Origin: a virus
Taxonomy: Duplodnaviria > Heunggongvirae > Uroviricota > Caudoviricetes
Reading direction: 5' to 3' (one strand)
DNA: 64,000 nucleotides
Virus record (IMG/VR): IMGVR_UViG_2703718787_000017
In this document: positions 15,001-18,000 of the stretch, one piece after another
Position numbering within the stretch: the stretch's first letter is position 1
Layout: every line of letters begins with the position of its first letter
Made by a program: the position numbers

Positions 15001-18000
15001 CAGAACGCGGCGCAGCCCGTCACGCAAAAATGCTCGAAACCGATCGGGCTTGACGTTATAGGTCGTTACTTGTAGATTTATCTTTGTGAGGCGTCAGAAC
15101 CTCTCTAAAGCGGACAAAACCAACCCCGTCAGTGTTGGATTTTTTATGCCTGTTATTCAGTGATAGCACAATGTGCTGTCACATCCCCGAACAATGTCGG
15201 GAGGGCGACGAATACAACACCCGTAAGGGGAATAAGTCCGCGGTTCTTTAGGCCGTTCTGAACCTCCCGACACCACTATCAGAGGTGGTAATTTCAGAAA
15301 AAGCTAAAGGAGGTCGTTATGACCATGCAACTCGCTGTAGAATCCCTCGTCGTCGTTACTTACTCTAACGTCCCTGTAATAACAACAGGGTTATTGGCAA
15401 ATCTATACAAAACTGAAGAAAAACATATACGGCAGAACTTCAAACGTAATGAATGTCGTTTCATTGCAGGAAAACACTTCTTTAAAGTAAGTGGCTGTGA
15501 ACTTGATAGTTTGCGAACCTCTCAAAGAGGTTTACAAATTTCCCCAAAAACCCGCTCCCTCATCCTCTGGACAGAACGCGGCGCTGCCCGTCATGCAAAA
15601 ATGCTCGAAACCGATCAGGCGTGGGAAGTGTTCGAAAAACTGGAAGACTGCTATTTCAGCCAGGGAAAAACAACACAAACCGAACAGCAGTCGCAGATTC
15701 AGCCACAATTCACAGCCGAGGAAATCATCCTCCTTTGCTACATGCAGCTCTGGATGGAAAAAGCCCAGGACCTCAGCAAACACCTGTATCCCATCATGAA
15801 AGAGCTGAATTCATCATACACGAACAAGCTGTATGACATTACGTTTGAGACCATCTACATGGTGACGAAGAACAGAGACGCGCTACTGCGGGAGGCGGCA
15901 CGGCTTGACCAGTCAAGTTTCGTTGTCCAGCGGGCCAGACCAATGCTGAAAAGCCTGCGGGCAAGACAATTCGAGTTTTAAGGCCAGATTTGACAAATCC
16001 GCATTAGCGGGGATATATTCCGCTCCATGGTGCTGAACACACCTTCGAAAGCGGAAACCGCGCCCGTCAGTCATGCGGATTTTTTATGTCCATTTTTCAG
16101 ATATGGTCGGGTAGCGCGTATACCGAAAAACAGCCGCAAGGCTAAGGATGCGGGCCGAACTTTCGACGGTGTTCAAGTACCCGACCGCCCTGCTGAACAC
16201 GGGGTGATCTGAACGAATCGAAAGGACATAAAACTATGAGCACTCAACTCGTATTCAAATCCCACGTTCTTGAAACGATCGAACACGACGGCAAACAGTG
16301 GTTCACTGCCGCGACTTTGGCTTCTGCACTGGAGTATTCGCGCGGCGATAAAATCACCCAGATATACAACCGCAATTCGGATGAGTTTACTCCTTGTATG
16401 TCAATCAACCTCAAAATGAGGTTCAACGGGATCAACAATAGCTTACGAGAGAAAGATGTGCGTATTTTCTCTCTACGCGGTGCCCACCTGGTAGCGATGT
16501 TCGCAACAACTCCAGTAGCCAAAGAGTTCCGTCGCTGGGTATTGGATATTCTGGACCGTGAAGCTAAAAAAAGCGCTATACCGCCACAACCTCATATTCA
16601 GCCGCAATTCACAGCAGAAGACATCATCCTGCTCTGCTACGTTCAACTCTGGATGGAAAAAGCACAACAACTCAGTAAACAGCTATACCCCGTCATGAGA
16701 GAACTGAACTCTGATTACTACGGGAAACTGTTTGATCTGGCCTACGAGACTCGTCATATAACCAACCGGACTCGCGACACATTGCTCCGCGAAGCAGCAA
16801 AACTTGATCCCGCCAACTATATGGTGCATAGGGCCAGAAGCATGCTGGCGCAACTACGGGCAAGACAATTTGAATTCTGAAACCAAAGGAGCTTCGGCTC
16901 CTTTTTTGTTGGGAAAATCCAGTGAGAGGGAATAATGAACCAGACTATCTTCCTCCGAAGTAAGCAGCAGCAACAATTCGCCATTAACGCAATCCTTGCA
17001 ACAACTCTCGATAAAGACAAACCCGTTACGATCCGCATCACCGATTACAAGCGGAATCTCGATCAAAATGCCAAATTTCACGCGATGGTCGCTGATATCT
17101 CCCGACAGGTTCAGTGGTGCGGCAGATGGCTAAAACCAGAACAGTGGAAAGTTTTGTTAATCAGCGGTCATGCCGTGGCGACAAAACAGGAAGCCGATGT
17201 TTTACCCGGTCTTGAAGGCGAATGCGTCAATATCCGCGAAAGCAGTGCGCAGATGAGCGTGAAGCGTATGGCAAGCCTGATTGAGTACACAACTTCCTGG
17301 GCTGTGGAGAAGGGGGTCAGATTTACCGACAGGAGGTACGAATGAGACGACAGCGACGAAGCATTACCGATATAGTCTGTGAAAACTGCAATTACCTTCC
17401 AACGAAACGCTCCCGAAATAAACCCAGGCCAATCCCCAACGAATCTGATGTAAAAACCTTCAATTATACGTCTCACCTGTGGGATGTCCGGTGGCTCAGA
17501 CGTCGTGCAAGATTTAATAGTCACTCCGGATAGTTCAATGTACGAGGAATAAGATGATGGCAAACCTACGCAAAGAAGCGCGTGGCAGAGAATGTCAGGT
17601 ACGGATTTACGGCGTATGCAATGGCAATCCTGAAACTACAGTTTTGGCGCATTACCGAATAGCTGGAATTTGCGGAACGGGAATGAAGCCAGATGACCTG
17701 TTGGCTGCATGGGCCTGTAGTGACTGCCATAATGAAATCGATCGCCGTACTCGCATTCTCGACAACAACGACGCCAGACTTTACCACCTGGAAGGCGTGA
17801 TCAGGACGCAGGCGATACTGCTGAAGGAGGGGAAAATTAAGTCATGAATGAATATGAGTTTGTGCTTCCCTGGCCGCCGACGGTGAATACCTACTGGCGA
17901 AGACGGGGAAGCCAGTACTACATCAGCGATAAAGGCCAGAAATACCGAAAAGACGTACAGCAAATCATCCGGCAACTCAGATTAGACATTTTCACTAAAT

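What the first reader, a model, noticed from the sequence alone, without database searches (positions are those of the whole stretch)
15050..16235. Repeated promoter, short terminated transcript and structured leader in front of every antirepressor-like gene (four copies, both ends of the prophage)
Each of four antirepressor-like genes (starts at 15319, 16236, 61131, 61668) is preceded by the same architecture: a near-consensus sigma70 promoter (TTGAC[G/A], 17-19 bp spacer, TA-rich -10), an intrinsic terminator about 45-65 nt downstream, then a ~150-170 nt leader ending in a strong RBS. Three of the four terminator loops carry the identical sequence CCCGTCAGT. In L1 and L3 the leader is closed by a 9-10 bp long-range helix enclosing about 80-90 nt; L2 keeps the L1 helix with a G-U-compatible substitution, and an inner hairpin keeps its stem while the loop differs (caccac-tatcaga-ggtgg versus caccac-attttg-tggtgg). 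This looks like a family of small RNAs or transcription attenuators coupled to antirepressor expression. From memory, Gifsy-1 has a comparable arrangement (IsrK sRNA upstream of the antirepressor AnrP); I could not verify whether these particular elements are already described. The second locus is at 61132-61906.
Basis: partly seen in the sequence, partly recalled or inferred. Interest (0 to 1): 0.65.

Follow-up and report, generated by a model that had tools for sequence, protein, structure and literature searches.

The report
C4-like antisense cassettes before antirepressor genes
Each antirepressor-like gene of this Shiga-toxin prophage is preceded by a small RNA cassette of a known phage kind (like C4 of phage P1 and IsrK of Salmonella Gifsy-1): a folded RNA carries two short words that match both a decoy site upstream and the gene's ribosome-binding site, so the gene is probably held in check by RNA pairing. 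The RNA family is already catalogued as sRNA-Xcc1, but I found no paper that treats it as this kind of switch.

Summary
All four leaders have a sigma-70-like promoter, a short leader ending in a hairpin plus U-run, a structured RNA, and a strong ribosome-binding site (RBS).

The structured part is not new. All four copies reach the gathering score of Rfam RF02221 (sRNA-Xcc1).

New here: the Xcc1-like RNA has the topology of C4. It carries two antisense words, a' in the loop of hairpin 3 and b' in the junction after it. Both words recur as sense copies twice: b1-a1 in the short upstream RNA, and b2-a2 overlapping the Shine-Dalgarno sequence.

These words covary three ways in 68 unique viral modules and in 88 unique genomic modules. 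Complements of at least 7 nt occur in 35-67% of cognate pairs and 1-2% of non-cognate pairs. In 51 of 57 viral cases the downstream gene has a KilA-N, Bro-N, ORF6N, AntA, P22_AR_N or Rha domain.

Best reading: a P1 C4 / P4 CI / Gifsy-1 IsrK-type RNA immunity cassette. The direction of regulation, RNase P processing and termination are inferred, not shown. I rate it a new variant of a known kind, of moderate interest.

The parts
14468..14497 (+). Cassette L0 promoter (TTGACA-18-TATATT)
   Evidence: 11 of 12 matches
14504..14577 (+). Cassette L0 short RNA, an isrK family member. b1 TTGGAAC at 14526-14532 lies in a hairpin loop; a1 GAGACC lies at about 14541-14546; a terminator follows at 14556-14572 plus a U-run.
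   Evidence: Rfam RF01394 55.9 bits against a gathering score of 50; terminator scan; fold; words
14603..14686 (+). Cassette L0 C4 antisense RNA. a' GGTTTC at 14646-14651 is the loop of hairpin 2; b' GTTCCAA at 14658-14664 is the junction.
   Evidence: Rfam RF01695 71 bits against a gathering score of 45; words
14690..14738 (+). Cassette L0 downstream target: b2 TTGGAAC at 14690-14696 in the tail-hairpin loop, a2 GAAACC at 14718-14723, then the Shine-Dalgarno sequence
14739..15053 (+). Truncated ant-like gene (ORF6N domain only, 104 aa). It ends at the -35 element of the next cassette.
   Evidence: RefSeq marks it partial
15050..15078 (+). Cassette L1 promoter (TTGACG-17-TAGATT)
15088..15145 (+). 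Cassette L1 short leader RNA: b1 hairpin at 15088-15103 (b1 TCAGAA 15094-15099), a1 CTAAAG at 15105-15110, GCGG, then a terminator CCAAC-CCCGTCAGT-GTTGG plus U6 at 15120-15145
15196..15279 (+). Cassette L1 Xcc1-type (C4-like) RNA: a' CTTTAG at 15246-15251 (P3 loop), b' TTCTGA at 15256-15261 (J3/1), tail ACCAC
   Evidence: RF02221 75.7 bits against a gathering score of 53; words
15271..15313 (+). Cassette L1 tail hairpin at 15271-15288, b2 TCAGAA at 15294-15299, a2 CTAAAG at 15304-15309, overlapping the Shine-Dalgarno sequence AAGGAGG at 15307-15313
15319..15981 (+). ant1 (ORF6N + P22_AR_C domains)
15990..16019 (+). Cassette L2 promoter (TTGACA-18-TATATT)
16029..16085 (+). Cassette L2 short leader RNA: b1 hairpin at 16029-16043 (TGAACAC 16034-16040), a1 CGAAAG at 16046-16051, a GCGG-AAA-CCGC alternative hairpin, and a terminator at 16058-16085
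16105..16194 (+). Cassette L2 Xcc1-type RNA: a' CTTTCG at 16160-16165, b' GTGTTCA at 16169-16175
   Evidence: RF02221 67.5 bits
16186..16226 (+). Cassette L2 tail hairpin at 16186-16206 (its loop holds TGAACAC at 16194-16200), CTGAAC at 16209-16214, a2 CGAAAG at 16219-16224, overlapping the Shine-Dalgarno sequence AAGGA
16236..16880 (+). ant2 (Bro-N + P22_AR_C domains)
61374..61403 (-). Cassette L3 promoter (TTGACG-18-TATACT)
61308..61366 (-). Cassette L3 short leader RNA: b1 hairpin at 61366-61350 (CTCGAAA 61361-61355), a1 CCAAAAG at 61349-61343, terminator at 61333-61308
61172..61257 (-). Cassette L3 Xcc1-type RNA: a' CTTTTGG at 61206-61200, b' TTTCGAG at 61195-61189
   Evidence: RF02221 74.5 bits
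61137..61180 (-). Cassette L3 tail hairpin at 61180-61163, b2 CTCGAAA at 61157-61151, a2 CCAAAGG at 61146-61140, overlapping the Shine-Dalgarno sequence
60508..61131 (-). ant3 (AntA + P22_AR_C domains)
61877..61906 (-). Cassette L4 promoter (TTGACA-18-CATACT)
61823..61870 (-). Cassette L4 short leader RNA: weak b1 ACTAC, a1 CGTCAG at 61863-61858, a GCGG-TCAA-CCGC alternative hairpin, terminator at 61850-61823
61708..61792 (-). Cassette L4 Xcc1-type RNA: a' CTGACG at 61739-61734, b' TAGTTGA at 61730-61724
   Evidence: RF02221 53.0 bits, exactly the gathering score
61677..61717 (-). Cassette L4 tail hairpin at 61717-61701 and a2 CGTCAGG at 61685-61679, overlapping the Shine-Dalgarno sequence AGGAG
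61381..61668 (-). ant4, truncated (AntA domain only, 95 aa). It ends inside the promoter region of cassette L3.

Best explanation
Each leader is an RNA immunity cassette of the P1 C4 / P4 CI / Gifsy-1 IsrK kind.

Anatomy. A promoter with no recognisable LexA box drives a short leader RNA. That leader displays two target words: b1 in a hairpin loop and a1 single-stranded. It ends in a weak intrinsic terminator. Transcripts that read through contain an 85-90 nt RNA shaped like a tRNA acceptor stem: a closing helix, two hairpins, a single-stranded junction and an RCC tail. This is Rfam sRNA-Xcc1. Its hairpin-3 loop (a') and junction J3/1 (b') are complementary to b1-a1. They are also complementary to a second copy, b2-a2, which overlaps the Shine-Dalgarno sequence of the ant-like gene.

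Inferred mechanism. The folded RNA is excised, probably by RNase P as shown for C4, and accumulates. It pairs with b2-a2 in cis and in trans and blocks translation of the antirepressor-like protein. The short terminated RNA carries the same words and competes for a'/b', acting as an anti-antisense as IsrK does. Pairing of a' with a1 on nascent leaders may also shift a GCGG/CCGY alternative pairing towards the terminator, giving negative feedback as in P4. The 6-8 nt words differ between cassettes, so each cassette has its own specificity.

Shown here: the anatomy, family membership, structural covariation, three-way word covariation, and association with Ant/KilA/Bro/Rha genes. Inferred: processing, the sign of regulation, and termination control.
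For: Family membership and structure.
- All four elements reach the RF02221 gathering score, and an isrK + C4 pair sits beside them.
- The structure is supported on 66 sequences: 83% of cells paired against 66% in shuffles, 231 against 79 cells changed on both sides, 0 of 500 shuffles as high, and slid controls far lower.

Antisense words.
- In the window, each composite word b...a occurs exactly twice in sense (upstream and at the Shine-Dalgarno sequence) and once in antisense inside the element. Only the shorter L2 and L4 patterns have other matches in the 64 kb, which look like chance hits.
- L1 and L3 are 87% identical. Their differences concentrate in these words (14 of 51 columns against 20 of 190, Fisher p = 0.005) and are compensatory.
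- In 68 unique viral modules, a Watson-Crick complement of at least 7 nt between a' and the upstream region occurs in 42, and with the downstream region in 39, against 1.6% of non-cognate pairs. For b', complements of at least 6 nt occur in 20 (upstream) and 38 (downstream), against 6.7% and 12.6%.
- Duplex-energy ranks agree.
- Of the 68, 46 have both sites and in all 46 the two sites share the same word. The a2 site ends a median of 9 nt before the start codon, within 0-12 nt in 46 of 49.
- An independent set of 88 unique genomic modules replicates this: 59 upstream and 31 downstream, against 2.2% and 1.1%.
- The positions of a' and b' match those annotated for C4 in APSE-7: the loop of hairpin 2 and the junction.

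Other features.
- Terminator stems covary and U-runs are conserved.
- The RCC tail is conserved (CC in 47-56 of 66 sequences), and a tail hairpin covaries.
- Of 57 downstream ORFs, 51 carry a P22_AR_N, KilA-N, Rha, Bro-N, AntA or ORF6N domain.

Published support.
- An sRNA-Xcc1 copy in EHEC EDL933 is very abundant and not translated: RPKM 25,609 and ribosome coverage value 0.02 (PMC5331693).
- In Gifsy-1, IsrK supplied in trans raises anrP translation about 140-fold, and compensatory mutants prove pairing between IsrK and the downstream RNA. A processed stable RNA, STnc1160, lies downstream of IsrK. IsrK is described as a structural homolog of P4 seqA (PMC4825925).
- The phrase 'IsrK-C4 immunity system' has been applied to lambdoid prophages (PMC3632133).
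Against: - There are no transcript data for this strain. No short RNA next to the EDL933 copy was reported in that study.
- The short RNAs do not fold better than shuffled sequence (z-scores from -1.3 to +0.3).
- The terminator hairpins are weak: 4-6 bp stems with 9-13 nt loops, missed by the scan.
- L1-L4 do not hit the C4 or isrK models even at E <= 1, so homology to C4 and IsrK is structural and functional, not demonstrated by sequence.
- The b contact is weaker than the a contact, and is poor in L4.
- A 5x5 duplex-energy matrix of the window's cassettes did not show clean orthogonality.
- In the Xanthomonadaceae subgroup only the upstream a1 site is evident, with no a2 at the RBS. RBS occlusion is therefore not universal in the family.
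- The sign of regulation is taken from analogues.
Confidence: 0.7

Rival explanations
1. The short terminated transcripts and the Xcc1-type RNAs are free-standing trans-acting small RNAs, Hfq-dependent like AgvB/AsxR or as proposed for sRNA-Xcc1 in Xanthomonas. Their main targets are host or other phage genes, and their position before ant genes is incidental.
For: sRNA-Xcc1 is described in the literature as a trans-acting sRNA linked to virulence regulators. Each short RNA ends in a terminator with a U-run, a typical Hfq-binding feature. The EDL933 copy is abundant.
Against: The antisense words match their own flanks and covary with them in well over a hundred unique modules, at fixed positions that include the Shine-Dalgarno sequence. 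In the window the composite words occur only at the three cognate positions. AgvB and AsxR lie at a different prophage site, the PR' moron region, and were not detected in this window. Additional trans targets are not excluded.
Confidence: 0.1
2. The leader is a cis-acting attenuator or riboswitch-like sensor. A ligand, a protein or ribosomes on a small upstream ORF decide between terminator and antiterminator, as in the orf45 translational-coupling model for Gifsy-1. No role is needed for a diffusible antisense RNA.
For: Alternative GCGG...CCGC/CCGU pairings compete with the terminator in the minimum-free-energy folds of L2 and L4. An AUG sits at the 5' edge of P1 in most enterobacterial copies. 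In Gifsy-1, orf45 translation contributes to anrP expression.
Against: The AUG is not universal: AAG, ATA and CAG occur at that position. It has no Shine-Dalgarno sequence. In L1 the ORF is only 10 codons and ends far from the ant RBS (direct reading of the sequence). No riboswitch family is hit. This model does not explain why loop, upstream site and RBS site covary.
Confidence: 0.12
3. The repeated architecture is only paralogous DNA, cassettes copied by recombination together with the ant genes, and the apparent RNA features have no function.
For: L1 and L3 are 87% identical. ant2 and ant3 share a 308-bp 3' segment at 97% identity. The truncated genes end at cassette borders.
Against: Helices and antisense words covary across distantly related modules from many bacterial groups. 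These include Enterobacterales, Pasteurellales, Vibrio phages, Neisseriaceae, Xanthomonadales, Alphaproteobacteria and Desulfovibrionaceae. The differences between L1 and L3 cluster in compensating words.
Confidence: 0.02

Closest known systems
C4 antisense RNA of phages P1/P7 (immI region: a1b1 - c4 - a2b2 - icd - ant; Rfam RF01695)
   Same: Both are made from the leader of the operon they control. The topology is the same: closing helix, two hairpins, single-stranded junction, RCC tail. Both have two antisense words, in the loop of the second hairpin (a') and in the junction (b'). Both have duplicated sense copies upstream and at the RBS. In both the target is an antirepressor-type gene, and word differences give specificity, as in P1/P7 heteroimmunity.
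   Different: L1-L4 do not match the C4 model. The closing helix is 9 bp rather than about 17. The first hairpin is enlarged and carries a conserved AAUACAAY internal loop. An intrinsic terminator lies between the a1b1 sites and the RNA. The regulated gene is the ant-like gene itself, with no icd-like upstream ORF.
IsrK - STnc1160/orf45 - AnrP locus of Salmonella prophage Gifsy-1 (Rfam isrK RF01394)
   Same: Both have a promoter, a short terminated RNA with partial read-through, a processed stable RNA downstream, then an antirepressor-like gene. The short RNA pairs with the downstream RNA. Both lie in the nin region of a lambdoid prophage. A true isrK + C4 copy is present in this window at 14504-14686.
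   Different: The short RNAs of L1-L4 are not isrK members by Rfam and lack isrK's first hairpin. The downstream RNA is of the Xcc1 type rather than the C4 type. No AntQ link is known here. The published model invokes orf45 translation rather than a C4-like fold.
P4 immunity: seqA - CI RNA (seqB) - seqC
   Same: A processed RNA from an untranslated leader pairs with complementary sequences both upstream and downstream of itself. The outcome there is premature transcription termination (citing the P4 literature).
   Different: P4 controls replication genes, not an antirepressor. Termination control in the present cassettes is only inferred, from alternative pairings.
sRNA-Xcc1 of Xanthomonas campestris (Rfam RF02221)
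   Same: The four elements are members by the family's own score threshold and share its structure.
   Different: Papers that cite the family describe it as an integron-, transposon- or plasmid-borne trans-acting sRNA under HrpG/HrpX control. Its juxtaposition with an ORF6N gene in APSE phages was noted without a mechanism. The cis-linked a1b1/a2b2 targets and the C4-like logic shown here were not mentioned in any paper I could search.
P22 sar RNA
   Same: It is an RNA that represses antirepressor translation by pairing near the ant RBS.
   Different: sar is transcribed from the opposite strand of its target. Here the antisense words are encoded in the same transcript, far from their targets. 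No sar match was found in the window.

Membership tests
Rfam RF02221 sRNA-Xcc1 | Covariance-model score at or above the curated gathering score (53 bits) | tested here: met
   75.7, 67.5, 74.5 and 53.0 bits for L1-L4. L4 sits exactly at the threshold.
Rfam RF02221 sRNA-Xcc1 | Closing helix P1, bipartite hairpin P2 with the AAUACAA...CCC-tetraloop-GGG core, hairpin P3, and an ACC-type tail | tested here: met
   Model alignments. Pair counts on 66 sequences: 83% paired, and 16 of 20 pairs with changes on both sides.
C4/CI-type processed antisense immunity RNA (functional class) | Sequence and structure match to Rfam RF01695 (C4) | tested here: not met
   Only the element at 14603-14686 matches. 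There is no C4 hit at L1-L4 even at E <= 1.
C4/CI-type processed antisense immunity RNA (functional class) | Two antisense segments, in the loop of the second hairpin and in the junction, complementary to duplicated targets upstream of the RNA and at the RBS of the controlled gene | tested here: met
   Window coordinates. Family statistics. The positions equal the annotated C4 a' and b'.
C4/CI-type processed antisense immunity RNA (functional class) | Excised from the leader by RNase P (tRNA-like acceptor helix with an RCC(A) 3' tail) | not testable with these tools
   The sequence is consistent only: an RCC tail in most of 66 sequences, and A/U before the helix. That RNase P processes C4 is recalled from Hartmann et al. 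1995, not checked here.
C4/CI-type processed antisense immunity RNA (functional class) | Controls an antirepressor or immunity-relevant operon | tested here: inconclusive
   The downstream genes carry ORF6N, Bro-N, AntA and P22_AR_C domains and hit PHROG 'anti-repressor' families. Antirepressor activity of these proteins is untested.
Rfam RF01394 isrK / c4-a1b1 leader RNA | Covariance-model match | tested here: not met
   Only 14504-14577 matches (55.9 bits). There is no hit at the four short RNAs.
Rfam RF01394 isrK / c4-a1b1 leader RNA | Primary transcript carrying the b1 and a1 target copies, ending in an intrinsic terminator that is partly read through | tested here: inconclusive
   Words, hairpin and U-run are present and conserved. 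Termination and read-through were not measured.
Riboswitch or leader-peptide attenuator | Match to a known aptamer or leader family, or a translated leader ORF with a Shine-Dalgarno sequence | tested here: not met
   No such Rfam hits. The AUG at the P1 edge has no Shine-Dalgarno sequence and is not universal.
LexA-controlled antirepressor (Gifsy gfoA/gftA type) | LexA box overlapping the promoter | tested here: not met
   No CTGT-N8-ACAG site (up to 1 mismatch) lies at any of the five promoters.

The most novel reading that the evidence does not exclude
The Rfam family sRNA-Xcc1 may be a second, very widespread lineage of C4/CI-type phage immunity RNAs, not a Xanthomonas virulence sRNA. It would be a modular 5' control cassette for Ant/KilA/Bro/Rha-type genes, programmable through 6-8 nt words. 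One promoter would make both a repressor (the processed antisense RNA) and its own decoy (the short terminated RNA). Several cassettes with different words in one prophage would set which prophages can cross-induce each other through antirepressors.
Probability: 0.4. Interest if true: 0.65.

Novelty: new variant of a known kind. Interest (0 to 1): 0.5.

Why it matters
Antirepressors decide whether lambdoid prophages, including Shiga-toxin phages, leave lysogeny, and they can act in trans on other prophages. In this Stx1a prophage the ant-like genes have no recognisable LexA box at their promoters and instead carry RNA cassettes. If these cassettes work as inferred, induction and cross-induction would be set by RNA pairing words that can be read directly from sequence.

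The result also reassigns a catalogued but functionally vague RNA family (sRNA-Xcc1) to a well-understood mechanistic class. That family is reported in other studies as a virulence-associated or vesicle-carried sRNA. The 6-8 nt words give a testable specificity code, and the family supplies well over a hundred natural covarying variants that could serve as orthogonal RNA switches.

Tried and rejected
- The simple terminator scan did not call the four leader terminators because their loops exceed 8 nt. I located them by sequence and by family conservation instead.
- A first ViennaRNA-based detection of hairpin 3 was unreliable. I replaced it with a contiguous-stem search and removed 11 misparsed loci by hand.
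- RNAalifold on the MAFFT alignment missed helix P1 because of indel misalignment. I supplied P1 by hand for the pair counts. One subfamily is shifted by one column, which lowers the percentage paired.
- The 5x5 duplex-energy matrix among the window's cassettes was too noisy to show orthogonality, so I make no claim of orthogonality from energies.
- A LexA-box search found nothing at the promoters.
- I looked for Gifsy-1 in the phage collection to map IsrK G28/G31 and C159/C162 onto b1 and b'. It was not among the listed hits. That the positions roughly coincide (about 25-26 and 158-159 in this window's copy) is my unverified inference.
- I looked for a short RNA next to the EDL933 Xcc1 copy in PMC5331693 and found none reported.
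- The original sRNA-Xcc1 paper (Chen 2011) is not held, so what it says is known only through citing papers.
- AgvB and AsxR were considered as relatives of the short RNAs and rejected: they lie at a different location and give no Rfam hit here.
- A small-ORF reading of the AUG at the P1 edge was considered and judged unlikely.
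Full report
**What is there**

The window matches an E. coli STEC chromosome (NZ_CP075697.1, 100% identity). It carries an Stx1a lambdoid prophage inserted in ynfG.

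The first locus lies in the nin region, between a higBA toxin-antitoxin pair and ninB. The second locus lies at the right prophage end, next to a DMSO-reductase-family gene.

The genes are antirepressor-like by domain content:
- 14739-15053: ORF6N only, truncated.
- 15319-15981: ORF6N + P22_AR_C.
- 16236-16880: Bro-N + P22_AR_C.
- 61131-60508 (-): AntA + P22_AR_C.
- 61668-61381 (-): AntA only, truncated.

RefSeq annotates no RNA feature in the first locus.

**Checking the observation**

The four promoters, the hairpin plus U-run elements, the CCCGTCAGT loops (three of four), the leader lengths and the strong ribosome-binding sites are all present at the stated places. A fifth promoter of the same type sits at 14468.

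The promoter and terminator scans are not enriched over shuffles by count. The case for these signals rests on their conserved position and covariation in relatives. A T-run follows the upstream site in 50 of 51 related modules. The terminator stems take more than ten different sequences while the hairpin is kept. An exact TTGAC lies 52-59 nt upstream of the site in 24 of 51.

**The structured leader is a catalogued RNA**

An Rfam scan at gathering thresholds finds sRNA-Xcc1 (RF02221) at four places: 15196-15279, 16105-16194, 61257-61172 (-) and 61792-61708 (-). It also finds isrK (14504-14577) followed by C4 antisense RNA (14603-14686) in front of the truncated gene at 14739.

On 66 related sequences the P1/P2/P3 structure forms standard pairs in 83% of cells, against 66% in shuffles. 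It has 231 cells changed on both sides, against 79. No shuffle of 500 reached the observed values, and every slid control was much lower.

**The new point: a bipartite antisense logic**

The RF02221 fold has the same topology as C4: a closing helix, two hairpins, a single-stranded junction and an RCC tail.

In each window cassette two things hold. The loop of hairpin 3 (a') and the junction after it (b') are complementary to a pair of words, b then a. Those words occur twice in sense orientation. One copy lies in the short upstream RNA, with b1 in the loop of a small hairpin and a1 just before a conserved GCGG and the terminator. The other copy lies immediately before or overlapping the Shine-Dalgarno sequence.

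| Cassette | b | a | b' | a' |
|---|---|---|---|---|
| L1 | TCAGAA | CTAAAG | TTCTGA | CTTTAG |
| L2 | TGAACAC | CGAAAG | GTGTTCA | CTTTCG |
| L3 | CTCGAAA | CCAAAAG (a1), CCAAAGG (a2) | TTTCGAG | CTTTTGG |
| L4 | weak (ACTAC) | CGTCAG | TAGTTGA | CTGACG |
| L0 (isrK + C4) | TTGGAAC | GAGACC (a1), GAAACC (a2) | GTTCCAA | GGTTTC |

Each composite word occurs only at these three cognate positions in the 64 kb. The exceptions are a few matches to the shortest patterns, which look like chance hits.

L1 and L3 are 87% identical. Their differences are enriched in the words (14 of 51 columns against 20 of 190, p = 0.005) and compensate each other.

The APSE-7 phage record annotates the a' and b' regions of its C4 RNA at the same structural positions.

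**Family-wide test**

I scanned viral contigs for the conserved core of the element and parsed 68 unique modules.

- A Watson-Crick complement of at least 7 nt between a' and the upstream region occurs in 42 of 68. With the downstream region it occurs in 39 of 68. For non-cognate loop and flank pairs the rate is 1.6%.
- Complements of at least 6 nt to b' occur in 20 (upstream) and 38 (downstream) of 68, against 6.7% and 12.6%.
- Both a-sites are present in 46 modules, and in all 46 they share the same word. The downstream site ends a median of 9 nt before the start codon.
- An independent scan of bacterial genomes gave 88 unique modules. These come from Enterobacterales, Pasteurellales, Neisseriaceae, Xanthomonadales, Alphaproteobacteria, Desulfovibrionaceae and others. 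The counts were 59 of 88 upstream and 31 of 88 downstream, against 2.2% and 1.1%.
- In the Xanthomonadaceae subgroup only the upstream site is evident.
- Of 57 downstream ORFs in the viral set, 51 carry one of six domains: P22_AR_N, KilA-N, Rha, Bro-N, AntA or ORF6N.
- Related leaders also occur in Vibrio, Moraxella, Haemophilus, Aggregatibacter, Bordetella and Acinetobacter phages.

**Other conserved features**

- The 3' tail after P1 is RCC(A/C) in most sequences, like a tRNA acceptor end.
- The tail forms the 5' strand of a covarying hairpin. Its loop often holds a further copy of b, as in L1, L2 and L0.
- After a1 comes (G)CGG, and the terminator loop begins (C)CCG. Rare variants change both together: GCGU with a GCG loop, and GCCG with a CGG loop.
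- In the minimum-free-energy folds of the L2 and L4 short RNAs, GCGG pairs with the CCGC strand of the terminator. This is a candidate antiterminator. The evidence for it is thin.

**How it most likely works**

By anatomy this is the P1 immI logic (a1b1 - c4 - a2b2 - ant), the P4 logic (seqA - CI - seqC) and the Gifsy-1 logic (IsrK - STnc1160 - AnrP).

Published work on these analogues says the following:
- C4 blocks the RBS region of the ant operon and sets P1/P7 heteroimmunity.
- P4 CI RNA pairs with sequences on both sides of itself and causes premature termination.
- IsrK reads through its terminator. The long RNA is translationally silent. IsrK supplied in trans raises anrP translation about 140-fold. 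Compensatory mutations prove pairing between the middle of IsrK and the downstream RNA. A processed stable RNA lies downstream of IsrK.
- An 'IsrK-C4 immunity system' had been noted in lambdoid prophages.
- An sRNA-Xcc1 copy in EHEC EDL933 is among the most abundant non-translated RNAs, with RPKM 25,609 and ribosome coverage value 0.02.

My inference is this. The folded RNA is excised and accumulates, then occludes the Shine-Dalgarno sequence through a' and b'. The short terminated RNA acts as a decoy for it. Pairing at a1 on nascent leaders may favour termination.

No LexA box is present at the five promoters. Control therefore appears to sit at the RNA level.

Processing, the sign of regulation and termination control are all inferred.

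**Novelty**

The RNA families (isrK, C4, sRNA-Xcc1) and the mechanism class are known.

In the searchable literature I did not find sRNA-Xcc1 described as a C4-like RNA with cis-linked duplicated targets, or as the general 5' cassette of Ant/KilA/Bro/Rha genes. Papers that mention it treat it as a Xanthomonas/Xylella virulence-associated trans sRNA. Others note its position before an ORF6N gene without giving a mechanism. The original 2011 paper could not be read.

I therefore rate this a new variant of a known kind, of moderate interest.

Noticed in passing
Its own b and a words are TTGGAAC and GAGACC (upstream) or GAAACC (downstream), arranged as in the other four cassettes.
   Followed up: yes
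window 15050-15053 and 61381-61403: Both truncated ant-like genes (N-terminal domain only) stop exactly where the next cassette's -35 element begins. A 68-bp stretch before the break is 96% identical to the corresponding part of ant1 (14982-15049 against 15553-15620). This looks like cassette-wise recombination. Whether the N-domain-only proteins function is unknown.
   Followed up: partly
window 16600-16907 (+) vs 60788-60481 (-): A 308-bp inverted repeat at 97.4% identity covers the 3' halves of ant2 and ant3 plus their terminators, about 44 kb apart. The L1 and L3 leaders are also inverted copies (87% over 250 bp). Recombination between them could invert most of the prophage.
   Followed up: partly
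window 15212-15240 and equivalents; alignment A3 columns 26-50: The internal loop and apical hairpin of P2 (AAUACAAY-ACCC-tetraloop-GGGRAAU) are almost invariant across very distant hosts. I found no complementary partner in the flanks, so their role is unexplained. It could be protein binding or tertiary structure.
   Followed up: partly
window 15271-15288, 16186-16206, 14679-14713; many loci: The hairpin formed by the RCC tail often carries another copy of the b word in its loop (L1 UCAGA, L2 CUGAACA, L0 UUGGAAC; ctcaaaa in many relatives). The junction b' could therefore pair in cis with a loop only about 20 nt away, forming a possible pseudoknot in the precursor.
   Followed up: partly
window 15110-15128 and equivalents; table: A conserved (G)CGG follows a1 and a conserved (C)CCG opens the terminator loop. 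Rare variants change both in step (GCGU with a GCG loop; GCCG with a CGG loop).
   Followed up: partly
window 15193-15195, 16104-16106 and alignment A3 columns 5-8: An AUG sits at the 5' edge of helix P1 in most enterobacterial and Pasteurellaceae copies, and also in the C4 consensus. In Gifsy-1 the AUGs of 'orf45' fall at this place. It has no Shine-Dalgarno sequence and is not universal (AAG, ATA and CAG occur). It may reflect RNase P context (A/U before a G+1) rather than a start codon.
   Followed up: partly
loci L125, L127, L131, L133, L151 and others (Xanthomonadaceae): In the Xanthomonas-type subgroup the upstream a1 site is clear, but no a2 copy is seen at the downstream RBS. The upstream contact may be the ancestral or more general one.
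   Followed up: no
window 21378-21591: A strong STnc100 (RF02076) match, 195 bits, lies just downstream of the stx1B gene of this prophage.
   Followed up: no
window 61990-62033: A 40-nt palindromic element with two copies of TGCAAAGCTTTGT lies next to the right prophage end. It was picked up as a 17-pair terminator-like hairpin and as a weak mir-19 match. It might be related to the attachment site or be an operator.
   Followed up: no
window about 25449-26016 and 26820-27317 (mapped from L001 31050-31616 and 32421-32918): Two further genes of the same protein superfamily (a phage antirepressor N-terminal domain protein and a KilA-N protein) lie in the lysis/late region. No Xcc1, C4 or isrK match was found there, so not every such gene in this prophage has the RNA cassette.
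   Followed up: no
window 16000-16012: An inverted repeat CCGC-ATTA-GCGG lies between the -35 and -10 elements of the L2 promoter. It could be an operator for an unknown repressor.
   Followed up: no
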